Assembly: GCA_000004695.1 (NCBI GenBank)
Contig: CM000152.2
Location: 2,688,001 to 2,752,000 of the forward strand
Reading direction: 5' to 3'
DNA length: 64,000 bases
From: Dictyostelium discoideum
Lineage: Eukaryota
Shown: positions 175 to 63,872 of the stretch, in pieces
Layout: every line of letters begins with the position of its first letter
Position numbering within the stretch: the stretch's first letter is position 1
The notes under the pieces: model-generated
What the model saw: the letters and a program-made list of their open reading frames with translations, nothing else
Told to the model about the DNA's origin: nothing
The model's database searches: none
Position numbers and translations under genes: made by a program

Positions 175-3100
175 ATGGATAAACCCAAGATTATAATTAA
201 CTCTCATTCCAAAGAAAAACAATTCAAATTAATTCTCGATACTGGAAGTAATGTTAGTTTAATCAATAAGAGGTTGATTTCAAAAGATATGAAGAACCAC
301 GTTCACAAAACCAAAGCCAAGATTAACTTCCCGCTACTAGACGTCAAAGAAGAGTTTGTTGAACAAATCAATATGCAAGTTAACAATGAAATTCATAACT
401 TCTTTATTATAGAATTGGATATCATTGATGTACTTTTCGGTAATGATATCCTTAAGGACTCTATCATTAACCAAAAAGATAAAATAATCAAGTTGAATAA
501 TAGTACATACAAAATTAATTATCAACAGTCGAATCAATTACATTGTAATGTAAAAGCTCCAAGAAAACATGTTACCGTATCCAATGATAATCAGTCACAT
601 AATCTACTGGATGATGATGAAGATATCAAAGAACAAGTTACAAAGTTTGTTGAAAGCATTCCTTCACAACTTTGTGATATACTGGTTAAAACTAATCCAG
701 AAGAAGAAGAGATACAAGCAGTACGAGATTTCATTAATGACTCATTCGAAGATGTTATAGTAGATAAACTTCCTGATATTCCAGATCAGATTAACAATTC
801 CAGAAGAGGTAATATCATACATAATATCATAATCAAGAAAGGTCAAGATGTTGAACCAACAAAGAAACAAATCTATTACTCAACAGATGATCATAAGAGA
901 CATGTCGAAGAGATGGTTCTCAAATTTATAGACTTAGGTATTATCAAAAGATCAGAATCAAATTACTCATCTCCAATCATGTTATTAAAGAAGAGAGATT
1001 CATGGCGTGTAGTCCACGACTATCGTCAACTAAATAAAGTCACTGTTAGAGACGATCATCCATTCACTCCGGTTGATAGTCTTTTAAATCAATGTAAAGA
1101 TTCAAAGCTTTTCTCAAAGTTTGACATGATTATGGGTTATTTCCAAGTGTTAATTAATCCAGAACACGCAAAGTACACCGCTTTCATTACACATATTGGT
1201 AAATTTGAATATACTAGAATGCCACAAGGTTTAGTCAACTCTCCATCCACATTCGCCAGATTGATGGTCGAAATATTTGGAAAAATCAAAAGTTTATTAC
1301 AATACTTTGATGATCTTTTGGTTCATTCAAAACTCGACTACATGGTACATTTCATTGAAATCATTAGAATGCTTCTATATTGTAGAAAGTACCTATTATT
1401 CATTTCAAGAGAAAAGAGTGAAATGTTAAAGACTGAAGTTGATTTCCTTGGTTTTCACATTCATAAAGATGGTATATCTCCAAGAGCTGCAAAGGTTAGA
1501 GCTATCTCTGAGTTACCTGAACCAAGAAACGCCAAAGAAGCTGAAGCTGCATTAGGTCTTTTTGGATTCTTCAGGAGACACATTGAAAATTACGCTGAAA
1601 AAACCTATCACCTTTCCAAAGAATCAAAAGGGAAAAACAAGAAAACTCTTTCTGATGAATCACTCAAAGAATTCAATAATCTAAAGAAAGAGTTTGAAGG
1701 TGAAAATATTGTCGCTATTCCAATTGAACAAGATAACTCCATATCAATAGATATCGAAAAGGTTAAAGCATCAACAGACATGCCAATCCATTCAGATAAT
1801 AATAATATAAACAATGGTAGTTTTCACTTGTATTGTGATGTTAGTGATAAAGCATTATCAGGTGTGTTATATCAAATCCAAGGTGATAAATTCAAAGTCA
1901 TTTGGTTCCACAGTAGAAAACTTACTGATACTCAAAAGAGGTACAGCATAGGTGATAGAGAGTTCCTTTCAATCATTGATTCTCTAAAGAAGTTTCAACA
2001 TTTATTAATTGGTAAAAAGGTTTCAATCTACACTGATCACCAAAATCTTACATATATTATCAATAAGTCAAACGATAAACCGTTCACAAAGAGACAAGAT
2101 AATTATATGAAATATATTAAAGAATTTGATTATGAATTAAGACATATAAGTGGTAAAAAGAATGGTATAGCTGATTTCTTGTCTCGTAAATATGATAATT
2201 TCCAATGGGATGAATCGTTTTTAAATAAAATTAAGGAAGAACAAATCAATTCTCAATGGCTATTAGAGATGAAAAAGAATCCAAATTTATGCATTGAAGA
2301 AATTAATGATATCTGCTACCTTAGTGAAGATGGGTTCAAGAAATTAATCATCATAGATAAAGAAACTATTCATACCGTCATTAGAGAATATCACGATACC
2401 AAATATAGTGGTCATCACGCTTTAGATATCACATACAATAATATAAGACAAGATTACTATTTCAAAGAAATGTTTTCTATTATCAAGAGGTACATAAAGT
2501 CTTGTGCAACATGTCAATTGAACATTAACCGTAAAGATAATGGTATACTCCAAAGTTTAGAAATTCCCTTTGAAGTTTGGAGAGATATATCAATCGATTT
2601 CTTATCGCTACCAAAAACAATGTATGCAATAAACGGATTTACAGTTGAAGTCGATCAAGTTTGTGTCATTGTTTGTAGATTATCTAAAATGGTTCATATA
2701 GTTCCATGTCATAAGACAATAGATGCCCAACATACTGCTCAATTATTGTTGAATCATGTGTTCAGACTCCATGGTTATCCAAGAACAATCGTCTCCGATA
2801 GAGATCCAAGGTTCCTTTCAGAAATATGGGAGAGATGGGCAAAGACGATGGATTCTAAACTCAAGATGACTGTGGCACACAGAGCACAAGCTGATGGTCA
2901 AACTGAAAGAATGAATAGAGAAATTATTAGAATATTAACTAAAGCCTCTACAGAGTATGGGGAGAATTGGTCAGATATCATTCCACTTATTGAATTTGCA
3001 ATGAACTCATCAATGAGCAAGTCTACAAAGATGTCACCATTCCAAATCGTTTATGGATTCAATCCACCAACTCCCGTTAATCACTTCAATTCATTAACAA

Positions 3101-3897
3101 AGACTCGTATACCAATGAGCAACATCAAAAAGATTGTCCGTGATAATATACTAGATGCTCAAATCAATGCTCAAAAGTACTACAACCGAGGTCGTGGTGA
3201 TGTTATCTTCGTAGTCGGAGAAAAGGTTATGGTTAAAAGAAAATTCTTCCAAACTAACCTTTCAAAAGATCTAATCTCTCATAAACTTGAATCCAAGAAT
3301 TGTGGACCATTCATAATCACTGCCGTTCATGGTAATAATGTAACACTCGATTTAGTAGGTTATCCAAAGAAACACAATGTGTTCAACAAGGATCAAATCG
3401 TAAAACTATATGAGGACAGTGAGTGGTTAAGAGAAGAGATATCGATGCCCGAACCTGAGGAGATGGACGAAGCAAGTTACGAAGTTGAAAGTATTCTCAA
3501 TCACGATAAAGTCAAAAAGATGTACCTAGTGAAGTTCAAAGGTTACCCAGAACCTGAATGGATCAAAGAAGTCGATACAGACTGTGAAGAGTTAGTCAGA
3601 GAGTATTGGAATAACGTGCAGAAGAAACAATTGAACTCAAGAAGAGAAAGAGAGAATGTAACTACAGAAGCCGTTGAGCCAATTGTGTCACCTCCGCTCT
3701 CCCAAGAAGTTCAAAGTTCTCAAACATTGCAACCAATTACTCCAAGACAACAAAACTCCATCTCAAATCAAAGAAACCAATCAAAGAAAAGAAAATCAAG
3801 AAATCAAAATACTCAAAGTGATGATGATGAACTTGATCTTAGTTTACAAATTAAAACAACTAGATCAGGAAGAAAAGTTACACCCAAGAGTTTATAG
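175..3897 (+). CDS. pol polyprotein: aspartic protease, reverse transcriptase, RNase H, integrase, C-terminal chromodomain.
   Basis: Motifs LILDTGSNVSLI (PR), YFDDLLVHS (RT), HHALDITY...CATCQ (IN zinc finger), YEVESILNHDKVKKMYLVKFKGYPEPEWIKE (chromodomain). 1240 aa with no stops. Confidence 0.85.
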   Translation: MDKPKIIINSHSKEKQFKLILDTGSNVSLINKRLISKDMKNHVHKTKAKINFPLLDVKEEFVEQINMQVNNEIHNFFIIELDIIDVLFGNDILKDSIINQKDKIIKLNNSTYKINYQQSNQLHCNVKAPRKHVTVSNDNQSHNLLDDDEDIKEQVTKFVESIPSQLCDILVKTNPEEEEIQAVRDFINDSFEDVIVDKLPDIPDQINNSRRGNIIHNIIIKKGQDVEPTKKQIYYSTDDHKRHVEEMVLKFIDLGIIKRSESNYSSPIMLLKKRDSWRVVHDYRQLNKVTVRDDHPFTPVDSLLNQCKDSKLFSKFDMIMGYFQVLINPEHAKYTAFITHIGKFEYTRMPQGLVNSPSTFARLMVEIFGKIKSLLQYFDDLLVHSKLDYMVHFIEIIRMLLYCRKYLLFISREKSEMLKTEVDFLGFHIHKDGISPRAAKVRAISELPEPRNAKEAEAALGLFGFFRRHIENYAEKTYHLSKESKGKNKKTLSDESLKEFNNLKKEFEGENIVAIPIEQDNSISIDIEKVKASTDMPIHSDNNNINNGSFHLYCDVSDKALSGVLYQIQGDKFKVIWFHSRKLTDTQKRYSIGDREFLSIIDSLKKFQHLLIGKKVSIYTDHQNLTYIINKSNDKPFTKRQDNYMKYIKEFDYELRHISGKKNGIADFLSRKYDNFQWDESFLNKIKEEQINSQWLLEMKKNPNLCIEEINDICYLSEDGFKKLIIIDKETIHTVIREYHDTKYSGHHALDITYNNIRQDYYFKEMFSIIKRYIKSCATCQLNINRKDNGILQSLEIPFEVWRDISIDFLSLPKTMYAINGFTVEVDQVCVIVCRLSKMVHIVPCHKTIDAQHTAQLLLNHVFRLHGYPRTIVSDRDPRFLSEIWERWAKTMDSKLKMTVAHRAQADGQTERMNREIIRILTKASTEYGENWSDIIPLIEFAMNSSMSKSTKMSPFQIVYGFNPPTPVNHFNSLTKTRIPMSNIKKIVRDNILDAQINAQKYYNRGRGDVIFVVGEKVMVKRKFFQTNLSKDLISHKLESKNCGPFIITAVHGNNVTLDLVGYPKKHNVFNKDQIVKLYEDSEWLREEISMPEPEEMDEASYEVESILNHDKVKKMYLVKFKGYPEPEWIKEVDTDCEELVREYWNNVQKKQLNSRRERENVTTEAVEPIVSPPLSQEVQSSQTLQPITPRQQNSISNQRNQSKKRKSRNQNTQSDDDELDLSLQIKTTRSGRKVTPKSL

Positions 3898-13057: not shown

Positions 13058-13059
<2 letters not shown>

Positions 13060-14335
13060 GAATAATAATGAAAACATAATTTTTTCGGGCGATGGAAAAG
13101 GTTTATCATTTCGTAAATTCAAACACTTACTCTTACTAATTCATGGCGAGGAAATATCGAAAGCTGATATTATTAGAAAACTAAGAAACAATGCATTGGA
13201 ATATGCCGCAACATTGGATACAAACTTAACAGCAATGGAGATAATTGAAGATCTTAAAGATGCTTTTGATATTGGTGATAGTGATGATTTAACAGAATTA
13301 ACAAAGTTGGGAGAATATAAATACAATACATTAGATATATTAATTGGTAAATTTCTATCAAAATGTTCAGCAGTTGATATTTCAGAAAAGTTTAAAATAC
13401 AATTGTTTTATTCAGCTGTTGGCACTGAATTGGGTATTGAAATTACAAAATGTGCACCAAAATCATTAAAAAGAGCAATAGATATTGCAAAGTCTTGTGA
13501 AGATGGTTCAATTCGTATCAAAGGTAGATCAATGTACACTGGTCAATTAGTTGCAAAGACGTTGCAAGAATTTGGTAATCAAAGATATCTAGGTTCGGGT
13601 TCTGGTTATTCTTCAACATCCCCTCAATATGTTACATCTCAAAACGAACAACAATCAATTGAATCTGAAGAAATTTCAACACCAATTTTTAAAAATCAAT
13701 ATTATAATCGATCACCACAAATGTCACCACAATCATCCCCTTATAAAGCACCACAAAATCAAGTAAATTCAATCACAAAATTTTGTAAATATTGCAAAAA
13801 GAAAGGTCATGTAATTCAAGAGTGTTGGTCAAAAGATAAAAATAATAATAACAATTACAATAATAGAACTAATTCAATTACAATGGTCAATAATAGTACA
13901 ATTAATTCAATTGGAATAGATAGTATGAATGCAGCTTTATTAATAAATAATAAAAATGTTAGAGGTTTGATTGATACTGGTTCATCACTTACTATTGTTT
14001 GGGAAAGTATTGCTAAAAAGTTAAAATTAAAGATTGAAAATAAACAATATTCTGTTAAATCAGCATCAAATAATGAAATCAAAATCATTGGAATAAGTAA
14101 CACAACAATTAAATTAGGTAAAGCATTGGCTAGAGTTAAAGTTAATGTTGTTAAAGATAATGATACATCAATTGATTGTATATTTGGCATTGATACAATA
14201 ATTGGATTAAATTTAGTCATTGATTTTAAAGAAATGATCATTAAGAATCTTGAATTCAATGTTGGTACCAAATTAATATCTAAAGAAACCCAACCATGTA
14301 TACAAACTATATTTAAAACAGTATCTGATTATTCA

Positions 14336-14366
<31 letters not shown>

Positions 14367-14968
14367 CATCAAAATCAGAATTATTAACAGATACTGATCA
14401 TTTAATTGAAAATTTTAATTCTCATCATATACTATCAATCAAATCGTGTCCAACTATTGAAGAACAACTACCAATAGATTACGATATTCCAGAATTCTTA
14501 TTCCAAGAACCAATAGATTCACCAATAACATCAAATTTACCATTAAAATCAATATCATTAAATCAAACAGAGAATTCAATAATTAAATCACAAATAACCT
14601 CAATTCAACCATTAATAAGAAATCCATGTACAAATTTATCAAGATTAGATTTTGCTCATAATTTCGCCCAAATTGTAAATAATAACTTCAAACGTCCTTG
14701 TCTCATTAAGGATAATCTTGGTAAAGACCAATTATCACAAATTAATAAAAAAGTTTCTCGTTCAAATATTCAAGTAGGAGATTATGTCTATTTACAATCC
14801 ACTGTTGGTCCAGTAAAGCTCAATAAATCTTGGGAAGGTCTTTTCAAAGTACATGAGAGAGTTAGCGATTTAAAATTCAAATTAGTATTGGATAATATTA
14901 AAAATCATGATGTGTTTTATATTAAAAGATTGAAAAATTTTTTTCAACTAAAAGGGGGGGATATGTAA
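13058..14968 (+). CDS. Gag-protease polyprotein (CCHC zinc knuckle plus aspartic protease). RT/RH/IN are missing.
   Basis: CKYCKKKGHVIQECWSKD zinc knuckle. LIDTGSSLTIV protease active site. The ORF ends at the 3' LTR boundary. Confidence 0.8.
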
Positions 14969-17713: not shown

Positions 17714-18511
17714 AAATTTTTTTTTTTTTGTTTTTTAACAAAAAAAAAAAACACATAGTGCCAAATTAAAAAAATCTTTTTTTATTTAGGAAAATAAAAA
17801 TAATAAAAGTAAAAAAAAAAAAAAACAACCAACCCACTAGTGTGCATATAACTACTTTAATTTAATGCTAAAATTTTATTATTTGGTCAACCTTATTTTT
17901 TATTTTAAAACTGTTTTTTTCTTTTTTATATATTTGGGTTACTAATAAAACTAATGATACTAATTTACTAAATCAAAAAATAATTTAGTATACTAATTTA
18001 ATTAATTTAATTTAGTATACTAAATCAAAAAATAATTTATTTTATTTATTTTAGAATAGATTTTTCAGTTTTTTTTTATAGAAAATAATTTTATTTTCAT
18101 TTTTTTTTAAATTAAATTTCTAAAATAAATCAAAGTTATTTAATTAACCTTTAATTTATTTTTTTTTTTATTTTTATTTTTATTTTTATTTTTATTTTTA
18201 TTTTTATTTTTTTTTTATTTTTATTTTGTTTTTTTTTTTTTTTTTTTTTTTTTTCAAAATTTTATTTGAAATTTAAGATTTTTTTCAATGGTTTTAATTG
18301 AAAAAATTCTTAAATTTCAATTGAAACCAAATAAATAAAAATTTAGATTTTATAAAATTTTAAATAAGATATACAATGCTCACAAACATTATAAATACAA
18401 TGAATTTTTCCCAATTTTTTTTTTTTAATTTTATTCTAAACTAAGAAACACAACAAATTAATTAAATTGTAATAAAATATAAAATATAAAATAAAATAAA
18501 TAATCAAACAA

Positions 18512-18817
18512 ATGGCAACTCTTTATGATATTTTTAATGAAATTAATAATAATAATAAAAGCCAAAGTTTTGTTAATGATAGAATGGAAATCATAGCAGA
18601 TATGGATGTAACACGTAACAGATGATATGTTTGTATTGAATTTTGAATTAGCAGGTGTCAATAAGAATGATATTAAAATTGAAATCAAAGATTCATTATT
18701 ATGTATTCAAGGTGAAAAATATAAATCAATGAACAACAACAACAAAAATAACTTACAAATTAATAATGATGATAAACCAATGATAGAAGAAGAAGATGAT
18801 GATTCATCATCATCTTC

Positions 18818-18894
<77 letters not shown>

Positions 18895-19106
18895 GTAATA
18901 ATAATAATAATAAATCATCAAAAACAAATGATAAAAAGTTTATTTCAGAAAGATCTTTTGGCCACTTTGAAAAATATTTAGATTTATCACCAGTATTTTA
19001 TCAATTAGATTTAAGTACAATTAATGCTCAATTCGAGGATGGTCTATTAACAATTACTGTAAGAAAAACTAACCTTTCAAATAATATTAAAATCCAAATA
19101 AATTAA
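18512..19106 (+). pseudogene. Small heat-shock protein (alpha-crystallin/HSP20 domain) with a 7-bp tandem duplication frameshift near the 5' end. The intact ORF restarts at M18627.
   Basis: DMFVLNFELAGVNKNDIKIEIKD...LLTITVRK alpha-crystallin signature. Upstream ATG 18512 gives MATLYDIFNEINNNN...MDVT, then gtaaca-c-gtaaca shifts the frame. Poly-N insert in the middle. Confidence 0.7.
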
Positions 19107-19252: not shown

Positions 19253-19359
<107 letters not shown>

Positions 19360-19383: not shown

Positions 19384-20017
19384 ATGGTTAAAAAAAGTAA
19401 TAGAGAAGAAGACTATAATATACTTTGTTTTACAATTGTTAGTGGAAAAATTCTTGAAGCATATGATTCTAATGGTTTGGCAGATGGTAAATTTTTTTTA
19501 TTTTTTTTTAATTTTTTTTTAATTTTTTTTTTTGGGAATTTTTAGTTTTTAATATACTAATAGTTATGTGAAAATAAAAATAAAAACCAAAAAATAAAAA
19601 AAAAAAGGGTATTGTAAAGTTGGATATTTAGATGAAACTAAAACACCAAATAAGGTTAAATGGTTATTAAAGACAACAGTATGTAATAAAACATTAGAAC
19701 CACATTGGAGTTATTCAGAAGCTTATTGGGTACCAAAATATGTTACCCAAATTCAATTAGAATTATTTGATCATGATATAATTGGTAGTGATGATTTCAT
19801 TGGTAGTGTTATTGTTGATATATCAAATTTAATAGAAGGTACACCTGAAGTTGAACAATATTCACTTGTTAAAAAAGATGGTAAAACTAAATCTGCCTCT
19901 GTATTATTTATGATTCAAAAGTGTCCAACAACTGATGAATTTAAAATTCATTGTAAAAATGCTACAAAATTAGAACTAATTTCAAATGAAATTAAAAAAG
20001 AAACTAATAAACTATAA
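19384..20017 (+). CDS. Small C2-domain protein, 2 exons: join(19384..19486,19608..20017).
   Basis: Exon 1 ...ILCFTIVSGKILEAYDSNGLADG, GTAAAT donor. Exon 2 ...YCKVGYLDETK...WVPKYVTQIQLELFDHDIIGSDDFIGSVIVDISNL (C2 beta-sandwich pattern). Confidence 0.6.
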
Positions 20018-23911: not shown

Positions 23912-24311
23912 AACAAGAAAAGAAATTGGGGAAAAAAAAAAAAAAAATAAAAAAAAAAAAAAGGGCTTTTTGAATAAAAATATTTATATTTGTGTGGTGG
24001 AATTGAAAGTTAATAAATAAACTTTATACCAAATAATTTTTATTTTTTATTAATTTTTTTATTTTTTTTATTTTAAAAAAAAAAAAATAATAAAAAAATA
24101 AAAAAAAAAAAAAATAAATAATAAAAATAAAAAAAAAAGAATTAATAGTGTAAATAAATTGTACAATGCTTTACTTTTTTTTTTTTTTCTTTTTTTTTCT
24201 TTCTTTTTTTTTTTTTTTTTTTTTTTTTCCATACCGTTGAACGATAATTTTTTTAATTTTTTTTTTTTTTTTTGAAAATTGGAAATATCTTTGCAATCAA
24301 AAAAGACTTTG

Positions 24312-30241: not shown

Positions 30242-33164
30242 TTATTTTTTAATTTCATTAATTAACTTGGCGACCAAGGCAGTCCAACCAGTCTGGTGAG
30301 AAGCACCAAGACCAGCACCACTATCACCATGGAAATATTCATTGAACAATATATGATCTTTCCAATGTTTTTTTGCGAAAATTGGTTTACCACCAGCAAA
30401 TTTTCTAGTACCATCTTGATTCTCTTGGAAGATACTAATGAGACGTTTAGAGATATCATCGGCTACGATATCCAAAGTTACGAGGTTACCAGAGTTTGTT
30501 GGATATTCAATTTGGAATTCATCACCATAGTATTCATGATAGGTACGAAGTGATTGAATCATGAGATAATTTACGGCAAACCAAACTGGACCTCTCCAAT
30601 TACTATTTGAACCCATGATATGAACATCACTCTCGCCAGGTACATAACCAACACAAGCATCCATCTCAGCAAAAGTGAATGGATGATCCTTGTGATGTTT
30701 TGATAATGATCTAATACCATTTTCAGAGAGGAACCAATCTTCATCCAACATTTTCTTTAAGATTAATTCCAATTTCTCACGATTTACAATTGAGAGTAAA
30801 CGTGATTTATTTTGACCCAAAGCAGTGAATGGAGCAATGTTTTTCACTAAATTTGGTCTATACTTTACGAACCAATCCAAACGTTCTTTGAATTTTGGTA
30901 AAGCTTGAAGTGTATCATAATCCAAAATTTCAGCAGCAAACAATGGTATTAAACCAACGAATGAATAGACTTTGAGTTGATGTTGATGAGAACCTGGTGA
31001 AATGATTGAATCAAAGAAGAAACCATCCTCATTACTCCATAAACCAGTTTTTGAGGTGATACTCTTGGCAATGCTAATGAAATGTTCGAGGAATTTAGTG
31101 GCGATTGATTCATAAGAGTTTCTTTCACGTGCTAAAATCAAGGAGATTTTCAACATATTGGCACTATAGAATGCCATCCATGATGTACCATCGGCTTGTT
31201 GAAGTTTAGCACCATCTTTCAATGGTGTTGATCTATCGAATACACCAATATTATCAAGACCTAAGAAACCACCTTCAAAAATGTTATTACCTTTGATATC
31301 TTTTTTATTGACCCACCAAGTGAAATTTAATAAAAGTTTATGGAAAATTTGCTCCAAAAATTCGATATCTTTAACACCGGTTGTTTTCTCTATATGTTTA
31401 TAGACTTCCAAGGTTGCCCATGCATGTACTGGTGGATTTACATCACCAAAATCCCATTCATATGCGCAAAGTGCACCACTTGAATGAGAATACCATTCAC
31501 GAGTAATTAGAATCAATTGACGTTTTGTCCATTCAATATCTAATAACATCATTGGTATCATTTGAAAAGCTAAATCCCATGCAGCCAAGAATGGGAATTC
31601 CCATTTATCTGGCATTGAAATTACATCGTTTGCATAGAAATGATCCCAATGATTATTACGAGTAACTGGTTTCTCTCTTGGATGAGCTGGGTCACCTCTT
31701 GCCCACATATCAACACCAAAGTGATAATATTGTTTGGTCCATAGTAAACCTGCCAATGATTGTCTTTGAATACGTTTTAAATCTTCACTCATACCATCGA
31801 TACCACTTTGGTTGGCCTTGAAAACATTATCATAAAATTCATCGGCTTCTTGTTCTCTTTTAGTGAAAATTGAATCAAAGCTTGTAAATGCTTCTTGTTC
31901 TTGAAATTCTGTTGGTGAGAATCTAATCTTTACAGTATAAGATTCACCTGGACCCAATAATTTCTTACAATGAGCTGCAACTTTTGTACCACTTTTTTCA
32001 TTTACACAATCTTTCCAACCATTAACAACTGAATTATTAATACCATCTTTTACATATGGTGAACTATTTGGATAATTAAATAATCTTTGAGTATTTGTAT
32101 CGTTCTCTGTGAATAAATAATTAATATCTTCTTTTTTTCCTGTTGCTGCTGCTGCATCAGATGTTTCCACGATATAATATCTTTTACCAATATGAACTTC
32201 TTCACTAACCAATTGATTATGTGTATGACGATGAATATATGGACGACGATCTGAATAACCCCATGACCAAGTATTACGATACCAAAGATGTGGAAGTACA
32301 TGAATGGTTGCTTCTCTATCGGTTGAACGATTATGTACGGTAACTTTACATAAAATATCATCTTCTTGATCTCCTTTAGCATATTCAATGTAACAATCGA
32401 AATATTCATCCTTATCAAAGATACCAGTATCTTCAATTTCATACTCTGGATCTTGTTTACCACGTTGTGCATTGGTTGATACTAAATCACTATATGGATA
32501 TTCATTCATTGGATATTTATATAACATTTTGGCATAGGAATGTGTTGGTGTATTATCTAAATAGAAATAATGTTCTTTTACATCTTCACCATGATTTCCT
32601 TCTGGTCCACCAAGTCCAAAAAATCTCTCTTTAATAATTGGATCTTTTTCATTCCAAAATGCTAAACCTAAACAAATATTTTGAAATCTATTACAAAATC
32701 CACCAATACTATCCTCTGACCATCTATATGCACGTGATCTAGCATGATCTTAAAAAAAAAAATAAAATGAAAAAAAAAAAATTAAAAAAAAAAAAAATGA
32801 AAATAAAAATAATATTAATAATAAATTTTAAATATTAATTAATTATAAATCCGTGAAAAAAAAAAAAAAAATAATAATAATAAAAATAATAATAAAAATA
32901 AAAAAATTAAAATAATATTTACCGTGTGGAAAGTAGGTCCATGGTTCACCACCATAATCTTCACGAACAGTTGCCCATTGTCTATCACTTACATAGGTAC
33001 CCCTTTTTTTTTTTTATAAAAAAATAATAATAATAAATATAAATGTTTGTAAGTATAATTGAAAAAGTGAGAAAAAAAAAAAAAAAAATTAAAAAAAAAA
33101 AAACCTACCAATTCTTCCAATCAGAATTTCTTAATAATGAATCATCTAATCTTTTTTGTTCCAT
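30242..33164 (-). CDS. GH63-like (MGH1/mannosylglycerate-hydrolase-like) glycoside hydrolase, 3 exons: complement(join(30242..32749,32923..33002,33109..33164)). Apparent 1-nt frameshift near 32700.
   Basis: N-terminal [62 protein letters not shown], then [20 protein letters not shown]...[14 protein letters not shown]... plus a 761-aa ORF with (alpha/alpha)6-barrel GH motifs. Introns GTAGGT...AG and GTAAAT...AAG. Confidence 0.65.
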
Positions 33165-33590
33165 TATTATTGTGAGGAAAATGAAAATGAAAATAAAAAA
33201 TAAAAAAAAAAAAAAAAAAGTTGTTTATTTAAAAAAAAAAAAAAATAATAAAAAAATAAAAATAAAAAAAAAATTAATTAAAAAATAGGAGACTTGTACA
33301 AAATCTAAAAAAATTAGTTCAAAATTGTTTTCGAATAATCCCGAAAATCATTCGTACACTTCGAACCCGAAAGGCAATATTTTTTTTTATTAATTTGGAA
33401 TTAATTAATTAATTAATTATTAGCACCAGAACATCAAAACAATAAAAATAAATATTCCTGAATTTTAAAATTTTAAATAATAATAATAACAATTGTTATA
33501 ATATATGATAATTTTTTTTTTTTTTTTTTTTTTATTATTTTGATTATACAATTAATTATAATGATTATACAATTAATTATAATCAAAATA

Positions 33591-49039: not shown

Positions 49040-51021
49040 AAGATTTTCTTAAAACTTTATATAAGAAATAAATTACAATTATTGTTGTAAATGAAATTGA
49101 AATAAATTCAGATAATAGAAAAGTTGATTTTTCACATTCTAAATAAGAATGTTTTGATGAATGAATTTTATGTATTACACTACTGATATTCATTGCAAGA
49201 TCAGAGAGTTGATTAATTCTATCATAGGCTTTAGAGTATTGATGAAGTTGTAAATTTGAATTGATTTGTGTTATCGTTGAATTAATACTCTTAAAGAAGG
49301 AATCGATTGATCTTACACTTGGATTATCGATTGAGTGAGTGAATTCTTCCCAAGTTTCATCATCACCAATATGATCCATTATACTCTTTAATGAATCAAT
49401 TGATGAAATTATATCAAAGTATAAATAATTTCTAATTGCTGAATCAGTTTGAGAGAATGATAAATCCTTTAAATTTGTAAACATATTACTTGGGTTATAT
49501 CCAATATTCCAAATGAAATTATTTTCAATTTGTTTGGAATTTTCATTAACAACTAAACTATTTGAACCAACCCCCCAAATTGTCATTAATAATGATTGTA
49601 ATATTGGTTTAGTTGCATCCATTGGATTAATTCCTAATTGTTTATCACATTGATAATCAATTTTCATTAATCCTGATTGAGTTTGAATACCAATTACCAT
49701 ATCAGGGAATGATACTGCCTTTTATTTTTTTTATAAAAAAAAAAAAAAAAAAAATTAATTTTAATTAATATATATATTTAAATTTAAAAAAAAAAAAAAA
49801 TTTAAAACTTACTTGATAATATCTATCTAATAATAATAATTCTTTATAAGAAATATCAAATAAAAAGATTGGAATAATTGTTTTTGAAGAATCATCTAAA
49901 TAAGATGGTATAAATTTTTGAATATGAACTTTAAACCAATGATGAAGTTCTTTTGAATCTAAAAATTGTTGAGTACCTTTTAATACTGAATGATGAGTTT
50001 TCAATGATGATTGTTTAATTTGAGCTGCATATAAATTATTTAATAATGATACTTCCCTCTTTGAAAATGTTATTCTTTGATTTGGTAATAATGGCATTTT
50101 CTCTCCTAATTGTTCCTTTATTGATTCCCAATCAAATTGTTCTGAAACTTCTAATTGTCCAACTAAATGATCATGTATCATAATTAATTGAATTTCTAAA
50201 TCAATCCAACCATATTTCTCTGGTATTTCATAAATTGGTGGTGATATTAATTGTCTAATTGTATGATAAAAAAATGTTGATATATCATATAATTTCTTTA
50301 AAAATAAAAAACAATAATAATAATAATAATGTTAATATATTTGTGAAGTATCTATGAATTATTTATTTATAAAAATATATACTTTTGTAAATCTTGAATT
50401 TGTATGTGGTAATTGTTGATTTGAAATTAAACCAGTACCCTTTGTTTGTGGACCATATGTACAAGTTTCAGCACCAATATCAATCCAAACATATCTACCA
50501 CTACCATCATTTGAATTATTTGGATTATTTGGTGATTCTGATTTTGATTGCCATAATTTAACATTACATAAATGGTCAACTACATTAATTCCATCTCTAT
50601 GTAATGTATTTATAGTTGTTGAATTCAATTGAGAATATGTATATTTTTCAATTGAATCTTCTCTATCATAAATTGTATTTATAATGTATACAACATATGA
50701 GATATGATTTTGTTGTTTATAATCTTGTGCTATAATATTATCAACTATATCGAATGGAACTAAATATTCATCCTGCTTTAAAGTGCTCCTATGTTGAAAT
50801 TCTGATATATACTTTTTAACTGATGCTTTAATCTCTTCATTTAAATTATGTGATCCTTCTGTTATATTAAATTTATGATTTTGTTTAATTAAATCAATAG
50901 TTTGTAATTTCTAAAAAAAAAATAAAAATAAAAATAAAAATTAGAGGTTTATTTTATATAAATTTTATTGTTGATTATAATAAAAATAATAATATAATAA
51001 TTAAAAATATTAATAATAATA

Positions 51022-51089
<68 letters not shown>

Positions 51090-51323
51090 GCTTACAGGAT
51101 ATAAAATAGTTGGGCTATAATCTTTATTTAATTTATTTAATAATATTTTTAATTCATCTTGTTCAAGTGAATCAAAACCAATTAATCTAACATCGATGTT
51201 GGTTGTATGTTGAATTTTGAAAAGTTGATCAAATAAACCATTTGAGTGTACTATATTTACAAGTAGAAAATGTAAAATAAATAAATATAGTATTAGATTT
51301 TTTGATACATTTTTAATTTTCAT
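49032..51323 (-). CDS. Type I membrane glycoprotein of unknown function (signal peptide plus C-terminal TM), 4 exons: complement(join(49032..49718,49813..50295,50383..50910,51096..51323)), about 641 aa.
   Basis: N-terminal MKIKNVSKNLILYLFILHFLLVNIVHS signal. C-terminal FLLSEFISISFTTIIVIYFLY helix. Frame-consistent GTAAGC/GTATAT/GTAAGT...AG introns. Confidence 0.55.
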
Positions 51324-51607
51324 TATTATATATTGGGTTTTTTTTTTTTTTTTTTTTTGATCAAAAAAAAGTGTGAACAGTAATGAAAATTAAATTGGAT
51401 AAAAAAAAAAAAAAAAGAAAAAAAAAAAAAAAAAAAAAATTTTGACCACAAAAAAAAAAAATAAAAAAAACAAAAACCAAAATTAAAAAATAGAAAACTT
51501 TATATTTTTATTTGATATATTTAAATAAATCATCAAAATATAATCATAATTTTTATATAATTAAAACAATATTTAATATATTTTTTTCATTAAATTAAAT
51601 GGGAGGA

Positions 51608-51772
51608 GGTAAGTGGAGGTGCGTAATACGCAACGACCACAGCTACCACAAATTGGTCAATTGAATTCTCGTAATTGAGAATCATACACAAACCAAACCG
51701 GTGTGCAATGGTCTGAAATTCATGCAATTAATATGCCTTTGTGATCACATATTAATATTGACAGGTAAGTAT
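51608..51772 (-). ncRNA. U1 spliceosomal snRNA.
   Basis: Gene-strand sequence ATACTTACCTG... (U1 5' end complementary to 5' splice sites). GATCACAAAGG (stem-loop I, U1-70K loop). CATTGCACACCGG (U1A loop). Sm site AATTTGTGG. Terminal stem-loop. 3' end approximate. Confidence 0.85.
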
Positions 51773-51827
51773 GAATTGTTAAGTTAAAAAGTTTTCATTC
51801 ATAAATTGATCACTTTTTCAATTAGAT

Positions 51828-51835
51828 TTATGGGT
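51828..51835 (-). promoter_or_regulatory. DUSE (ACCCATAA), about 60 bp upstream of the U1 snRNA start.
   Basis: Plus-strand ttatgggt is ACCCATAA on the U1 strand, at -56 to -63. The DUSE consensus [AT]CCCA[CT]AA is the known Dictyostelium ncRNA upstream element. Confidence 0.7.
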
Positions 51836-52247
51836 TAAAAAAAATTAAAAAAAAAATTTTTATTTAAAAAAAAAAAAAAAATATAAAAAAATAAAAAAAA
51901 AATTTAATTTCAGAAATGGAAAATGTTTCTTTTTTTTTTTAACAGTTTTGTTTGAACCAGTTATTTTAATAATAAAAAAAAAAATTAACATAAATTGTTT
52001 TTTTTTTATTTTATTTTTTTTTTTTTCAACAAAACTAAATTTTAATAAAAATGTAAATTGCCAACATTAAACAATGATGATTTAATTTAATTTTTTTATT
52101 TTTTTTATTATTTTTTTTATTTTTTTTTTTATTTTTTTTTATTTTTTATTTTTTTTTTTTTTTTTTAAACTGGTTTGATGATCAAAATTTTTTTTTTTTT
52201 TTTTTTTTTCTTTTTTCATCTCGTATTTTAATTTACACAACAATAAA

Positions 52248-53470
<1,223 letters not shown>

Positions 53471-53740
53471 ATAGTTCAATAAACAACAATTAATATAGGT
53501 TTTTAAAAATATAAAATATATATATTCTTAATGTTTTTTTCTTTTTATATTTTATTATTATTATTATTTTTATTTTTTATTTTTATTTATTTTAAAAATT
53601 TAAAAAAAACCATAGGTAATTATTATAATATATTGAAGGAGAAGAGGAAAAAATATAATAAAATTTATTATAAATTGATTGTGTGGAAATAAAATATTTA
53701 CAAATTCATTGAGATTTTAATAATCCAATTATTAAATTCA

Positions 53741-54051
53741 TTATTGAGAATTTAATAATTCTATTACACTCAAAGAGTTTTCAATATGTGATGAATGGGA
53801 TAACCAGGAAGTATGATGATTTAAAGCAATCTTGCCGTTTTTATCAATAACAAATGTTACCCTACCAGGAAGTAGACCATTTACTCCATATAGCTTCCCA
53901 ATCGCTCCGTTTTTATCTGATAATATAGTATAGTTGACTCTATGAGCAGCATGAAATTTTTTATGATTATCCATTGTGTTTGGACTATTGCCAGGTACAT
54001 ATTTTTTTTTTTTAAAAAAAAAAAAAAGAAAATTAATAAATCTATTTTAAA

Positions 54052-54086
<35 letters not shown>

Positions 54087-54387
54087 ACCTCTGCACCCAT
54101 TTCAATAAATTTTTCATAACTATCTCTAAAATAACAAACTTCACGAGTACAAACCCATCCAATCTATAAATATTATTATTGATTAAATTAATTTTTAATT
54201 TTTTTTTTTTTTCATTTAAACATATTAAAAAAAAAAAAAAAAAAAAAATTATTTATTTATTTACATTATTTGGATAAAAAAATATAACTAGAGGTTTACC
54301 GGCAAAATCTTTTAGATTAAATAATTTTCCATCTTTATTTGGAAGTGTAAATTCAGGAGCAATTTCTCCTATTTTCATAATACCCAT
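53741..54387 (-). pseudogene. BCP/PrxQ-type peroxiredoxin paralog 1, probably a pseudogene (1-nt frameshift in exon 2 and no canonical acceptor for the last intron).
   Basis: Exon 1 54265..54387 (MGIMKIGEIAPEFTLPNKDGK...FFYPNN). Exon 2 54088..54163 (IGWVCTREVCYFRD then frameshift before SYEKFIEMGAE). Exon 3 53741..~54001 (YVPGNSPNTMDNHKKF...ILSDKNG...RVTFVIDKNGKI). Confidence 0.5.
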
Positions 54388-54938
54388 TTTAAAATTTTAT
54401 AATATTTTTAATTTTTGTAGAATAAAAACTTTATTTTTTTAACTATTATTAATTTTAATAGTATAGTCTGAAAATTCAAATTTGATTCTATTAATTTATA
54501 TGGCTCTCTTTTTAATAAAAAAAAAAAAATAAAAAAAAATAAAAAAAAAAAAAAATTCAAAAAATAATTCAAAATTAAATAATTATTTGATTTTAATTTA
54601 AATTAAAAATGAAATAATAATAATAATAAAAATAAAAAAAAAAAAAACAAGATAATCTATTGGTAATAAAAAAACATTTTTTTTTATTAATTTTTTTTTT
54701 TGAAAAAAAAAAAATACTTGAACCTTTCAAAGCATAAATGCTATAATTAAACTCATATGAGCAATTTTTTTTATCTTTTTATAATGTTGTTTTTTTTGAT
54801 TACTATATATATATATACTTAACAATACTTTAACAGCCAGAGTAAAAACACCACACAGGATGTTAATTTTTTTTTTTGGGGGTTCATTTATCAAAAAACA
54901 ATGCATACTTGATGAAATAATATTTGCTTCAAATAATG

Positions 54939-54973
<35 letters not shown>

Positions 54974-55277
54974 ATCACAAGGGTAAAAAATAACCACCAA
55001 ATAAATTGTGATATCGCGATTTCTTCCTTTGATGGTTAAAAAAGGGTAAAAGTGAGTTCAAAAGATTAAAAAAAAAAAAATAAGATATAATTTAAATAAT
55101 AATTGGTTTTTTTTTATTTTTTTTATTATTTTTATATTATTATATTTTTATTATTATATATATGTATATATTACAGAGTATTTTTGGATTGAGTTAGGGT
55201 GATTTTTAAGCGTATAATTGGTTTTTTTTTTTAAGTTAAAATAAATAAACCATTAAAATAATTATTGTGATATTATC

Positions 55278-55336
<59 letters not shown>

Positions 55337-55412
55337 GTTAGGTTAATTGGAAATCTGTAATTTGAATAGGTTTTTTTTTAAAAAAAATATTTATATTTCA
55401 TTTGTAAATATT

Positions 55413-55976
55413 CTAATTAGCACTTAAAGTTTCTACTAATTTTAATGATTCTTCAATATGTTGAGTTGATTTTAATAAAGCAGAGTGACTAAATACAATT
55501 TTACCAGTTATATCAATTATAAAAGTTACTCTATCAGTAATTAAAAAACCATCGACACCAAAAGTTTTAGCTAATTTACGGCCTTCATCAACAACTAAAT
55601 TAAAAGGAATTTTATGTTTTTCTGCAAATCTATTATGAGATTCAACAGAGTTTGGACTTGCTCCGATAACTTCAACACCAAATTCACAAAATTTTTCATA
55701 GGCATCTCTAAATTCACCTTTAATTATTTAATATCAAATAAATTTTAAATGTTAGAAATTGTTATTTTTTTTTTATTATTATTAATTTATTTATTTATAA
55801 AAAAAAAAAAAAAATTACATACAAACTTCACTTTTACAATAGTAACCTATATTATTTGGAAAGAAAAATAAAACAAATGGTTTTTTCCCAATGTAATCTG
55901 ATGCCTTGATTTCTTTACCATCCTTATTTTTAACACTAAATAAAGGGCATTGATCACCAACATTTAATCTTGTCAT
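55413..55976 (-). CDS. BCP/PrxQ-type peroxiredoxin (thioredoxin peroxidase) paralog 2, intact: complement(join(55413..55717,55823..55976)), 152 aa.
   Basis: MTRLNVGDQCPLFSVKNKDGKEIKASDYIGKKPFVLFFFPNNIGYYCKSEVCEFRDAYEKFCEFGVEVIGASPNSVESHNRFAEKHKIPFNLVVDEGRKLAKTFGV...RVTFIID. GTATGT...AG intron of 105 nt. Confidence 0.75.
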
Positions 55977-56138
55977 TTTATTAATAATATTTATTTTTAT
56001 TTAAATTAAAATAGTATTCTTCTTTTTTTTTTTTTTTTTTTATATTTTCTATAAATATTCCTTTATTTTATTAATTAAATAATTTATTTATTTATTAATT
56101 TATTAATTTATTTATTAATTTTTTTATTATATTAATTT

Positions 56139-56189
<51 letters not shown>

Positions 56190-56559
56190 TTTGTTTATTT
56201 GTTTATTGCTCTTTTATTTTTGAAATTATAAACAATATATTATTTTTTTTTTTTTTCTTTTTATTGTGTGGATTATTTTTGTATTTTTTATTTATTTTTA
56301 TTTATTTATATTATTTATTTTAATAAATGAAATTAAAATTAAATTTAATTATTTAAAAAAAAATGTGGCGTGATCATTTTGATGGTGTCATACATAAAAT
56401 GTATTTTTTAAATTTAATTTTTTGTTCGCGTTGATATTTTTTTTTTTTTTTTTTTTTTTTGATATTTTCATTTGCTGTTTTTGGGGTTTAATTTTTTTTT
56501 TTTTAATTGTTTATTTTTTTATGTATTGTAAAATACTATGTTATATGATGGCCTTACCT

Positions 56560-56680
56560 CTAAATCTATGTTTTGTTAAATATTACATACATACAACATA
56601 CAAACACACAAACACACAAACACACAAACACACAAACACACAAATACACACAAGCACACACACACACATACGTTTCATTT
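56560..56680 (+). repeat. CA-rich microsatellite (ACAAACAC)n / (ACACAA)n.
   Basis: acaaacacacaaacacacaaacacacaaacacac... Confidence 0.9.
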
Positions 56681-57021
56681 TTTTTTTTTCTTTGCTTTTT
56701 AATTTTAATTTTATATTATCATATTAAAAAAATAAAAATAAAATAAAAAAAAAATAAAAATAAAATGAAAATGTGCAATAACAAGGGAGACAATAGAAAA
56801 AGAGAGGCAACCTTATGTTTTTAGATCATACAAAGAGTATTGTTTGTTTTTTTTATTAAATCTTTTAGAACTTACGTTTCAAAATTTATAATTATCAATG
56901 TTTGCGAACACTTTTTTTTATTTTAATTGTTTAATTTTTATTTTTATATCATTTTTATTTTTATTTTTATTTTTATTTTAATTTAATTTTTAAGATTTAA
57001 ATCCAAATTTAAATTTGCTCC

Positions 57022-57055
<34 letters not shown>

Positions 57056-57399
57056 AACATTTTTTTCAATGTAAAATTAAGTTGAAAATATATTTTTTCA
57101 ACTTAATTCCTATATCAATGAATTATTTTATCAGAATAATTTTGTTTCAAATTCTAAAATTAATTCTTTTAAACCTATATACGCATTTATTAAATCAATT
57201 TTTGGTACTGTCTTTTCTCTAATTTACTTACTATCACTGATTTAAAATGGTACGTAAAATATAATAATTTTAATTCGTCCAATAATTATTTTAATATTTC
57301 AAGTAAAATAATTTTTTGGTTTTGTAAGAATACATCAAAAGCTTCAATGATAGAAATTTAAAACGGGTATGAGTTATTTAACATGAAAAATATCGATTA

Positions 57400-57473
57400 G
57401 TTCGGATGGTGTAGTCGGTTATCACGAATCCTTAACACGGATTAGGTCGTGGGTTCGATTCCCGCTCTGAATA
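57400..57473 (+). tRNA. tRNA-Val (anticodon AAC).
   Basis: GTTCGGA-TG-GTGT-AGTCGGTTA-TCAC-G-AATCC-TTAACAC-GGATT-AGGTC-GTGGG-TTCGATT-CCCGC-TCTGAAT-A. Very close to canonical eukaryotic tRNA-Val. T5 terminator at 57485-57489. Confidence 0.9.
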
Positions 57474-57514
57474 CAAACTAATACTTTTTCCAAAGACAAA
57501 TTTTCATAGTCAAA

Positions 57515-57525
57515 AGTTCGATTCC
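57515..57525 (+). promoter_or_regulatory. External B box (ex-B) 42 bp downstream of tRNA-Val.
   Basis: AGTTCGATTCC matches the B-box consensus GGTTCGANTCC. Confidence 0.6.
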
Positions 57526-57920
57526 AGAAGAATGCAGTCTTTGAAAAAAAAAAAAGTAATTTAGCAATTTATTTAAAATTTTAATACCTTTTAAAATCAT
57601 TTAATTTATATAATTTAGTTTGTTTTATTATTATATTTCATCTTATAAAAACATAAAACAAAAAAATTATTGAATTTGATGGTTAAATACTAATTAGTTA
57701 ATATTTTTTTTTTTTTTTTTTTTAATAAAATGTTGGTGAAATTTTAATACACAAATCCAATAAAAAAAAAAAATTTAATAAAAAACAGCAAAGATCAAAA
57801 AAAAAATAAACAAAATAAAAAATATAAATGATAGGAATGAATTTAAAGATTTATTTTATTAAAAACATTTAGATCAATAATTATTAATTATTTTCTAAGA
57901 ATATCAGCCTAAAGAGTTAT

Positions 57921-59384: not shown

Positions 59385-60184
59385 TTTTTTTTTTTAAATT
59401 ATAATTTGTTAATAATTTGAAAATTAATAAATAAAATGTTGTTTTTTTTTTTTTATTTATAGTTTTAAAATTATAACTATGGAAAATTAAAAAAAAAATG
59501 TGTTACCCAACAATTATATTCAAATAAACAAGCTCCATAGTTTTGATTATAAACAAACCAATTAATTCCAATTTTTCCAAGTTTTTAGACTTTTAAATAA
59601 ATATGAAAGTATGAAATTAAAAAAAAAAAAAAAAATAAATAAAAAAAAAGTGGAAAAAATTTTAAAATCGGATTAATTCTTGGGTGCGAAAAAAAAAAAA
59701 TTAAAATTTAAAAAACATTTCCCAGTCAAAACAAAAAAAAAAAAAAAACAAAAAAACAAAAAAAAAAAAAAAAAAAAAAAAATTATACTTATTTAATTAA
59801 AAAAATTTGAATGGAAATAATTTGTTAAAATAATGGTATAATAGTTTGTGGATAACAAATGTGCAATACCAATTGGTAGAAGAAGATTATTATCACCGGA
59901 TCTCTTGAGCTCCAGTTTCAATCATACTATGTTCAACTTAAAGAAAAATTAGCTCACGCTCCAATTACAGTCAAAGAAGATTTAGATATTTTAGAAAAAC
60001 TTCTTGTAACAAGAGCCGCAAAAAAAAAATAAAAGTAAAAAAAAAAAAATAAAAAAAAAGAGGCGAGGAATCAACCAGCTCGGCATAAAATTACTTTTCA
60101 CCACTTTAATGCTGAAATTTTTACATTCGACCACCCTTATTAGTTTATTACCCTTTTTGTTTATTGTTTTTAAATGGCAAACAT

Positions 60185-60246
<62 letters not shown>

Positions 60247-61485: not shown

Positions 61486-61693
61486 TTTAAAAATAAAATA
61501 TTAATTTTTTTTGTTAATTAATTAATAATTTGATTGTAAAATTTATTTAGTTATTTAAATTTTTTTATTTTTAAAAATATAATTTAAATGATTTATAATT
61601 GATTGTTTTGTATATATATATAATATATTATTAGCTGTCCAATCTACTGGTACAAATGTTCAAGAAAGGTGTGAAAAATAAAAAAATTAAAAT

Positions 61694-61734
<41 letters not shown>

Positions 61735-63803: not shown

Positions 63804-63872
<69 letters not shown>

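What the first reader, a model, noticed from the sequence alone, without database searches (positions are those of the whole stretch)
18512..18640. 7-bp tandem duplication (gtaaca-c-gtaaca) frameshifts a small HSP gene
The upstream ATG frame (MATLYDIFNEINNNN...IIADMDVT) and the alpha-crystallin domain frame (DDMFVLNFELAGVNK...) differ by +1. Removing the 7-nt duplicated unit at about 18619-18625 gives MDVTDDMFVL, which matches the sHSP N-terminal consensus. Either this is a pseudogene, or the protein starts at M18627 with the upstream part acting as a uORF.
Basis: seen in the sequence. Interest (0 to 1): 0.5.

Follow-up and report, generated by a model that had tools for sequence, protein, structure and literature searches.

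The report
One extra C breaks sHSP gene
An ordinary, conserved Dictyostelium small heat-shock protein gene is knocked out of frame in this sequence by a single extra C, not a 7-bp duplication; the C is absent from a sister lab strain and all relatives, so it is most likely a reference sequencing error or else a recent lab-strain null allele.

Summary
The frame break is real in this sequence. An sHSP gene (Pfam HSP20) at 18512-19106 (+) starts in one frame (37 codons, TGA at 18623) and continues in the +1 frame.

The lesion is not a 7-bp tandem duplication. Five orthologous loci all read ATGGATGTAACAGTAAC[A/C]GAT, that is Met-Asp-Val-Thr-Val-Thr-Asp. These loci are the chromosome-level D. discoideum assembly with locus tag ACTFIT (inferred AX2-214), two wild D. 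discoideum isolates, D. citrinum and D. dimigraforme. Both GTAACA hexamers are therefore native codons, and the only extra base is C18614. Deleting it gives a 197-aa protein identical to the ACTFIT one.

The window is the AX4 reference, because it shares an AX4-only peroxiredoxin anomaly (VPGNS). AX4 and ACTFIT differ at about 60 places in 36.8 kb, nearly all in or next to homopolymers. That is far too many to be real between two NC4-derived lab strains. The polarisable differences around the gene are all derived in the window.

Best reading: a base-call error in the 8x Sanger reference (about 0.6). Otherwise it is a very recent AX3/AX4-lineage null allele (about 0.33). There is no sign of programmed frameshifting. 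The finding is ordinary and of low interest.

The parts
18512..18613 (+). 5' part of the sHSP coding sequence (Met1-Thr34 of the intact protein: N-terminal arm plus the first Val-Thr pair). This is frame A.
   Evidence: It is identical to the ACTFIT allele. The N-terminus MATLYD[IL]FN is conserved in orthologs and HspG paralogs.
18608..18620 (+). GTAACA-C-GTAACA: two native Val-Thr codon pairs with one extra C between them.
   Evidence: Five orthologous loci read GTAACAGTAAC[A/C] with no intervening base.
18614..18614 (+). The extra C, the only lesion. Removing it restores a 594-nt ORF of 197 aa.
   Evidence: It is the single difference from the ACTFIT allele across the whole coding sequence. 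It is absent from L001, L003, L005 and L006.
18623..18625 (+). Premature TGA that ends frame A after the out-of-frame codons Arg-Asn-Arg.
18615..19106 (+). Rest of the sHSP coding sequence in frame B (Val35-Asn197 plus TAA). It holds the alpha-crystallin domain from strand beta3 onward and the C-terminal IKIQIN. The ATG at 18627 is Met39 of the intact protein.
   Evidence: HSP20, E = 6e-15. One search aligns it to S. pombe Hsp16 and plant Hsp21/Hsp16.9. One search gives the numbering.
18819..18893 (+). (AAT)25 tract encoding poly-Asn in the low-complexity linker that splits the alpha-crystallin domain. It has the same length in ACTFIT and is much shorter and Ser-rich in the wild isolates.
17909..18366 (.). 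Upstream intergenic stretch with 7 substitution differences from ACTFIT and a poly-T length difference. Every difference that could be polarised is derived in the window.

Best explanation
The locus is a normal, single-exon small heat-shock protein gene of the Dictyostelium HspG-like group. The intact product is 197 aa. It consists of an N-terminal arm, an alpha-crystallin domain interrupted by an Asn/Ser-rich linker, and a C-terminal I-x-I tail.

In this sequence, which is the D. discoideum AX4 reference for chromosome 3, one extra C at 18614 lies between two native Val-Thr codon pairs and shifts the frame.

Shown: the C is private to this assembly, and apart from it the coding sequence is identical to the ACTFIT allele.

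Inferred: the C is most likely a base-calling or assembly error in the low-coverage (8x) Sanger reference. It sits at the edge of a stretch of other reference-private miscalls between long homopolymers. If so, the organism makes the ordinary full-length sHSP and there is no biological frameshift.
For: 1. One base, not seven. ACTFIT (L002/L004), two wild D. discoideum isolates (L001, L003), D. dimigraforme (L005) and D. citrinum (L006) all read ATGGATGTAACAGTAAC[A/C]GATGA. Their proteins read MDVTVTD[DE]MF.

2. The gene is functional in the clade. There are syntenic 1:1 orthologs, and pairwise dN/dS is 0.24-0.37 between clades.

3. There is no decay. The window coding sequence minus C18614 equals the ACTFIT coding sequence, with 0 differences in 594 nt.

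4. The window is the AX4 reference. The AX4 peroxiredoxin XP_001732996.1/B0G133 reads GAEVPGNSPNT exactly as window 53988-53999 does. ACTFIT and five other genomes read GAEVIGISPNT.

5. The reference carries private errors here. Over 36.8 kb, AX4 and ACTFIT differ by about 35 substitutions and 26 homopolymer lengths, almost all in or beside homopolymers. There are no substitutions in about 21 kb of annotated coding sequence apart from the peroxiredoxin cluster. Both strains descend from NC4, and the measured mutation rate is about 1e-11 per site per generation (titles and abstracts of PMC3466296 and PMC7466956). That predicts far fewer than 1 real substitution in this span.

6. Polarisation with the wild isolates as outgroup puts 17909, 18133, 18260/18265, 18366 and 18614 all as derived in the window and none in ACTFIT. 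At 18307 the ACTFIT base makes the 24-nt inverted repeat perfect.

7. The peroxiredoxin cluster changes an invariant motif and destroys the AG splice acceptor. This shows that reference-private miscalls do reach coding sequence.

8. AX4 is listed at 8x coverage and AX2-214 at 79x Nanopore plus Illumina (PMC12745789). Resequencing work treats 'errors in the reference genome' as a routine class (PMC3466296).
Against: No reads from AX4 itself could be examined, so a real AX3/AX4-lineage insertion is not excluded.

C18614 lies in ordinary-complexity coding sequence, 248 nt from the nearest other discrepancy, and not in a homopolymer. Sanger consensus errors are rarer in such places.

The comparison assemblies all come from one project and one technology. 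They do contain homopolymer-length errors of their own. One example is the A-run just after the ATG of the downstream C2 gene in L001. However, a C between A and G is not that kind of error.

The identity ACTFIT = AX2-214 is inferred from the paper's strain list and the near-identity to the window. It was not read from the record.
Confidence: 0.6

Rival explanations
1. This is a genuine, very recent 1-nt insertion in the AX3/AX4 laboratory lineage. AX4 then carries a null or severely hypomorphic allele of this sHSP, in effect a newborn pseudogene. AX2 and wild strains keep the gene. The mRNA would give a 37-aa peptide and at best traces of an N-terminally truncated product.
For: The C is in the deposited reference in non-repetitive coding sequence. 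No AX4 protein for this locus exists in the protein collection, although eight AX4 HspG paralogs do. This fits annotators having treated the locus as disrupted. The total lack of other damage is what a change only decades old would look like. The family is large, with many paralogs per genome, so loss of one member is tolerable.
Against: Real AX2-AX4 differences should number far fewer than 1 in the region compared. About 60 reference-private discrepancies are present, and the polarisable ones point to errors in the window. On base rates, any single AX4-versus-ACTFIT difference is therefore much more likely an error. A C insertion is also not the signature of the nitrosoguanidine treatment in AX3's history (own knowledge).
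Confidence: 0.33
2. This is a designed arrangement. Either the 37-codon upstream ORF acts as a regulatory uORF, with termination-reinitiation at the ATG one base after its stop (TGA-T-ATG) giving a 159-aa, 18.2-kDa sHSP. Or a programmed +1 ribosomal frameshift at ACA-C yields the full-length protein.
For: The uORF stop and the next ATG are 1 nt apart. The 159-aa ORF still scores as HSP20.
Against: The frame break is absent from every ortholog and from the sister lab strain, so it is not a conserved feature. The 'uORF' is simply the conserved sHSP N-terminus. The 159-aa product would lack the N-terminal arm and strand beta2. There is no slippery or stall motif of a known +1 site. Three in-frame ATGs (18512, 18584, 18602) precede the downstream ATG. 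Neither ORF is on record as a called gene anywhere.
Confidence: 0.03
3. This is the first reader's mechanism: a 7-bp tandem duplication (GTAACAC/GTAACAG) created the frameshift, and the ancestral junction was MDVTDDMFVL.
For: The hexamer occurs twice, 7 nt apart. Deleting 7 nt also restores the frame.
Against: Both hexamers are present, adjacent and in frame, in all five orthologous loci, where they encode Val-Thr-Val-Thr. The units match only 6/7. Such spaced hexamers occur at the chance rate.
Confidence: 0.02

Closest known systems
Dictyostelium HspG small heat-shock proteins (AX4 'heat shock protein Hsp20 domain-containing protein' / 'Small heat shock protein hspG...', e.g. P0012, P0020)
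   Same: They share the same architecture and motifs. These are the N-terminus MAT[LI][FY]D[IL][FL]N, MDVT[VM]T at the start of the alpha-crystallin domain, a low-complexity linker, KKFISERSFG.F.[KR]YL.L, NGLLTIT and the C-terminal NIKI[NQ]IN. Identity over the full length is 39-45%.
   Different: This is a separate single-copy locus on chromosome 3 with its own 1:1 syntenic orthologs in D. citrinum and D. dimigraforme. It is not one of the clustered hspG genes. In the AX4 reference it is out of frame, and no AX4 protein for it appears in the protein collection searched.
Solved alpha-crystallin-domain sHSPs: S. pombe Hsp16 (3W1Z), Arabidopsis Hsp21 (7BZW, 5NMS), wheat Hsp16.9 (1GME)
   Same: Both halves of the alpha-crystallin domain align. 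Residues 26-77 match the beta2-beta5 region and residues 131-191 match the C-terminal strands with the G-x-L motif.
   Different: The Dictyostelium protein carries an Asn/Ser-rich insert of about 60 residues inside the domain. E-values are modest (1e-4 to 2e-6).
Reference-assembly miscall in the same window: AX4 peroxiredoxin B0G133 'VPGNS'
   Same: It is an AX4-private discrepancy in coding sequence. ACTFIT and every other genome contradict it, and it breaks a conserved feature.
   Different: It is a cluster of 5 substitutions directly next to a homopolymer, rather than a lone 1-nt insertion. It did not break the frame, so it has propagated into RefSeq and UniProt.

Membership tests
HSP20 / alpha-crystallin small heat-shock proteins (Pfam PF00011) | The alpha-crystallin domain scores above Pfam's curated threshold. 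| tested here: met
   The score is 55.6 bits against a 20.8 cut-off for the repaired protein, and 52.9 bits for the 159-aa ORF. The match falls in two stretches split by the low-complexity insert.
HSP20 / alpha-crystallin small heat-shock proteins (Pfam PF00011) | A conserved G-x-L motif in the late beta strand, and a C-terminal I-x-I anchoring motif. | tested here: met
   AQFEDGLLTITV aligns to ANFSNGLLTVTL of 3W1Z. The C-terminus NIKIQIN holds I-K-I and I-Q-I.
HSP20 / alpha-crystallin small heat-shock proteins (Pfam PF00011) | The N-terminal arm and strand beta2 are joined in frame to the rest of the domain. | tested here: not met
   In the window, C18614 separates them. The feature is met in ACTFIT and all orthologs.
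HSP20 / alpha-crystallin small heat-shock proteins (Pfam PF00011) | Stress-inducible holdase chaperone activity and oligomer formation. | not testable with these tools
   No expression or biochemical data are available for this locus. PMC6584373 reports heat induction only for HSPG1 and HSPG2.
Programmed ribosomal frameshift gene | The frame break and its slippery or stimulatory site are conserved among orthologs. | tested here: not met
   None of five orthologous loci has a frame break.
Decaying (unitary) pseudogene | Further disabling changes or relaxed constraint beyond the first lesion. | tested here: not met
   There are 0 other differences from the intact ACTFIT allele in 594 nt. dN/dS among orthologs is 0.24-0.37. 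A lesion only decades old cannot be excluded this way.
Tandem-duplication frameshift | The second copy of the unit is absent from the ancestral or orthologous allele. | tested here: not met
   Both GTAACA copies are present in all orthologs as Val-Thr-Val-Thr. Only the C is extra.
Spliceosomal intron (the window is eukaryotic) | GT...AG boundaries, a length compatible with splicing, and removal that restores the frame. | tested here: not met
   GT18608...AG18621 is 14 nt, and removing it gives the wrong frame. GT18615...AG18621 is 7 nt, far below any spliceable size (own knowledge). Orthologs have no insert here.

The most novel reading that the evidence does not exclude
AX4 really carries the extra C and still makes a useful product: an N-terminally truncated 159-aa sHSP translated by termination-reinitiation at the ATG one base after the 37-codon upstream ORF. 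That would be a natural experiment on an sHSP lacking its N-terminal arm and strand beta2.
Probability: 0.03. Interest if true: 0.3.

Novelty: not a real feature. Interest (0 to 1): 0.07.

Why it matters
It matters little for biology. The gene is an ordinary member of a large Dictyostelium sHSP family and is intact in the sister lab strain and in related species.

The practical value is curation:
- The AX4 reference probably hides a functional sHSP gene behind a one-base miscall.
- The same window holds a second likely miscall that has reached RefSeq and UniProt (peroxiredoxin B0G133, VPGNS instead of VIGIS).
- Users who map proteomics, RNA-seq or CRISPR designs to AX4 would miss or mis-model these genes.

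If the C turns out to be real, AX4 and AX2 differ by one sHSP. That is a minor strain difference worth knowing for proteostasis work.

Tried and rejected
- Intron reading (the window is eukaryotic). GT18608-AG18621 is 14 nt and gives the wrong frame; a 7-nt 'intron' is not spliceable; orthologs have nothing there.
- Paralogs inside the window for comparison. There are none.
- Independent contigs carrying the frameshifted products. The 159-aa ORF and the 37-aa ORF are on record nowhere. This is uninformative, because short-read contigs break at the (AAT)25 tract and at the homopolymers.
- Look-up of a contig-end-truncated product.
- Fetching the AX4 record itself. The FNIP-neighbour homolog search returned nothing at E <= 1e-100. 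The AX4-only protein P0080 has no gene position on record. The second contig carrying the VPS9 protein was collapsed with ACTFIT and not shown.
- Metagenome scan for either allele. It gave 0 hits.
- Transcript contigs for the peroxiredoxin, to decide VPGNS against VIGIS in independent runs. Only the ACTFIT assembly carries P0088.
- Literature lead 'hsp19, DDB_G0295803' (PMC6584373). It could not be tied to this locus. The 159-aa ORF is 18.2 kDa and the intact protein is 22.6 kDa, and no such AX4 protein matched the query.
- Bacterial promoter and terminator scans and RNA-family tools were not used, because they do not apply to a Dictyostelium nuclear gene.

Full report
**What is in the sequence**

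The window is Dictyostelium nuclear DNA. It is 23% G+C with poly-Asn coding tracts and contains a FNIP-repeat gene, a VPS9 gene and retrotransposon ORFs. At 18602-18629 it reads ATG GAT GTA ACA C GTA ACA GAT GAT ATG.

The ATG at 18512 opens MATLYDIFNEINNNNKSQSFVNDRMEIIADMDVT, followed by Arg-Asn-Arg and TGA (18623-18625). The +1 frame is open from 18612, has its first ATG at 18627 and runs to TAA at 19104-19106. It encodes 159 aa that score as Pfam HSP20.

So the frame offset and the GTAACA-C-GTAACA string are both real. The string alone means little. Hexamers with all four letters repeated at 7-nt spacing occur 3 times in the window, against 3.3 expected in shuffles. The two 7-nt units also match only 6/7.

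**What the lesion really is**

They come from two D. discoideum isolates (ACTFIW, 177 aa; ACTFIR, 179 aa), D. dimigraforme (191 aa) and D. citrinum (157 and 160 aa). All read MDVTVTD[DE]MF. The AX4 HspG paralogs read MDVTMT[ND]D.

I fetched the DNA of these loci. They are syntenic with the window: in the D. discoideum assemblies the gene lies between the FNIP-repeat gene and the C2/VPS9 genes, and in the other species the VPS9-sized gene lies on the same side, with the C2 gene also present in D. citrinum. Each locus reads ATGGATGTAACAGTAAC[A/C]GATGA.

Both GTAACA hexamers are therefore native Val-Thr codon pairs, and the only extra base in the window is C18614. Deleting that one base gives a 594-nt ORF (197 aa). 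It is identical in every residue and nucleotide, including the (AAT)25 tract, to the gene on chromosome CM142509.1 of GCA_054883475.1.

**The gene**

Alignment to solved sHSPs places residues 26-77 on the first half of the alpha-crystallin domain and residues 131-191 on the last strands with the G-x-L motif. The templates were S. pombe Hsp16, Arabidopsis Hsp21 and wheat Hsp16.9. A low-complexity insert of about 60 residues separates the two halves. The C-terminus NIKIQIN carries the I-x-I motif.

The frame break falls between strand beta2 (DMDVTVT) and strand beta3 (MFVLNFEL). Pairwise dN/dS among orthologs is 0.24-0.37 between clades, so the gene is under purifying selection. There is no paralog inside the window.

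**Which genome this is, and what it was compared with**

Window ORFs match AX4 chromosome 3 genes DDB_G0279941 and DDB_G0279955.

The decisive marker is a peroxiredoxin at about 53.7-54.4 kb on the minus strand. The AX4 protein XP_001732996.1/B0G133 reads GAEVPGNSPNT, exactly as the window encodes it. The ACTFIT protein and those of five other genomes read GAEVIGISPNT. The window is therefore the AX4 reference sequence.

ACTFIT is 99.5-99.7% identical to the window over 36.8 kb, with no coding substitutions apart from the peroxiredoxin cluster. The project that deposited these assemblies is Holland et al., PNAS 2025 (PMC12745789, PRJNA1300491). It sequenced nine wild isolates and the lab strain AX2-214 with Nanopore plus Illumina, and its table lists AX4 at 8x coverage and AX2-214 at 79x. 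I infer that ACTFIT is AX2-214, ACTFIR is CR116C and ACTFIW is OT3A, from contig sizes and divergence.

**Real mutation or reference error?**

AX2 and AX4 both descend from NC4. With the measured mutation rate of about 1e-11 per site per generation (titles and abstracts of PMC3466296 and PMC7466956), far fewer than one real substitution is expected in 36.8 kb. The comparison instead shows about 35 substitutions and 26 homopolymer-length differences.

- The homopolymers are always longer in the window. This probably reflects truncation in the long-read assembly, or real slippage.
- The substitutions form tight clusters beside homopolymers: 17909-18366, 19510-19587, 23963-24098, 33087-33176 and 53988-53999.
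- Only two loci in about 21 kb of annotated coding sequence differ: C18614 and the peroxiredoxin cluster.

The peroxiredoxin cluster has five changes in 12 nt. It alters an invariant V-I-G-[IA]-S motif that the tandem paralog also keeps, and it destroys the AG acceptor. That looks like a miscall, not a mutation.

Using the wild isolates as outgroup, positions 17909, 18133, 18260/18265, 18366 and 18614 are all derived in the window, and none is derived in ACTFIT. At 18307 the ACTFIT base completes a perfect 24-nt inverted repeat.

The sHSP gene also sits between a 26-nt poly-T, a 75-nt (AAT) run and a 104-nt poly-A. This is difficult ground for Sanger reads.

On these grounds I put about 0.6 on C18614 being a reference error and about 0.33 on a genuine, very recent AX3/AX4-lineage insertion. 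The second cannot be excluded for three reasons. The site itself is not repetitive. It lies 248 nt from the nearest other discrepancy. No AX4 reads were accessible.

**Other readings**

- A spliceosomal intron is excluded. The 14-nt GT...AG span gives the wrong frame, 7 nt is too short to splice, and orthologs have no insert.
- A programmed frameshift or a designed uORF is excluded in practice. The break is not conserved in any relative, the 'uORF' is the conserved sHSP N-terminus, and a product started at 18627 would lack the N-terminal arm and strand beta2.
- The AX4 annotation in the protein collection contains eight HspG paralogs but no product from this locus. This fits annotators having seen a disrupted gene. 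I could not read the dictyBase entry.

**What failed**

- Exact-product look-ups for the 159-aa and 37-aa ORFs found nothing.
- The AX4 record could not be fetched.
- A metagenome scan for both alleles found nothing.
- The peroxiredoxin alleles are not represented in transcript contigs.
- The literature lead hsp19/DDB_G0295803 (PMC6584373) could not be linked to this locus.

**Verdict**

The feature is a single extra base private to the AX4 reference in an otherwise intact, conserved and ordinary gene. It is most likely an artefact and otherwise a newborn lab-strain null allele. Interest is low, and the value is in curation.

Noticed in passing
window 53988-53999 (minus-strand gene at about 53727-54373): The AX4 peroxiredoxin (XP_001732996.1 / UniProt B0G133) reads GAEVPGNSPNT, as the window does. 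ACTFIT, two wild D. discoideum isolates, D. dimigraforme, D. citrinum and D. firmibasis all read GAEVIGISPNT. The difference is 5 substitutions in 12 nt beside a homopolymer, and it also removes the AG splice acceptor. This is probably a reference miscall that has reached the protein databases.
   Followed up: yes
window 10189-33674 and 50484-63844, compared with L004 and L007: All 26 homopolymer-length differences between the window and the ACTFIT assembly have the longer run in the window. Examples are poly-A 19254-19357 (104 nt against 26) and poly-A at 29303 (+30). The one-sidedness suggests systematic truncation in the long-read assembly, or over-extension in the reference.
   Followed up: partly
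window 19510-19587, 23963-24098, 33087-33176, 51412-51477: There are tight clusters of mostly A/T substitutions against ACTFIT, in introns or intergenic DNA right next to long homopolymers. They are far too dense to be real differences between two NC4-derived strains. These clusters were not polarised, because the outgroup is missing or unalignable there.
   Followed up: partly
window 18266-18289 and 18297-18320: A 24-nt inverted repeat (TTGAAATTTAAGATTTTTTTCAAT and its complement, with a 7-nt loop) lies about 200 nt upstream of the sHSP start codon. It is perfect in ACTFIT and has one mismatch (18307) in the window. The second arm is deleted in the two wild D. discoideum isolates. It could be a regulatory element or a repeat remnant.
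   Followed up: no
L001 at about 3724-3745 (corresponds to window 19385-19400): In the ACTFIW assembly, the A-run right after the ATG of the downstream C2-domain gene is one base shorter (ATGGTTAAAAAAGT against ATGGTTAAAAAAAGT). This shifts the frame, and the called gene is 101 aa against 170 aa in ACTFIT. The long-read assemblies evidently have homopolymer indels of their own.
   Followed up: partly
window 175-3897 (+) and 13058-14968 (+): These are LTR-retrotransposon-type ORFs. One is a 1240-aa pol with reverse transcriptase, RNase H and integrase domains. The other is a 636-aa gag-like protein with an aspartyl protease domain. The second is also present at the same place in ACTFIT.
   Followed up: partly
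window 18819-18893: The poly-Asn tract inside the sHSP linker is (AAT)25 in the AX4 and ACTFIT alleles. In the wild D. discoideum isolates it is replaced by a short Ser-rich stretch. This is a large, in-frame, strain-specific repeat expansion inside the alpha-crystallin domain.
   Followed up: partly
literature (PMC6584373, Table 1): 'hsp19, DDB_G0295803' is listed as a newly identified alpha-crystallin-domain gene of AX4. I could not establish whether it has any relation to this locus.
   Followed up: partly
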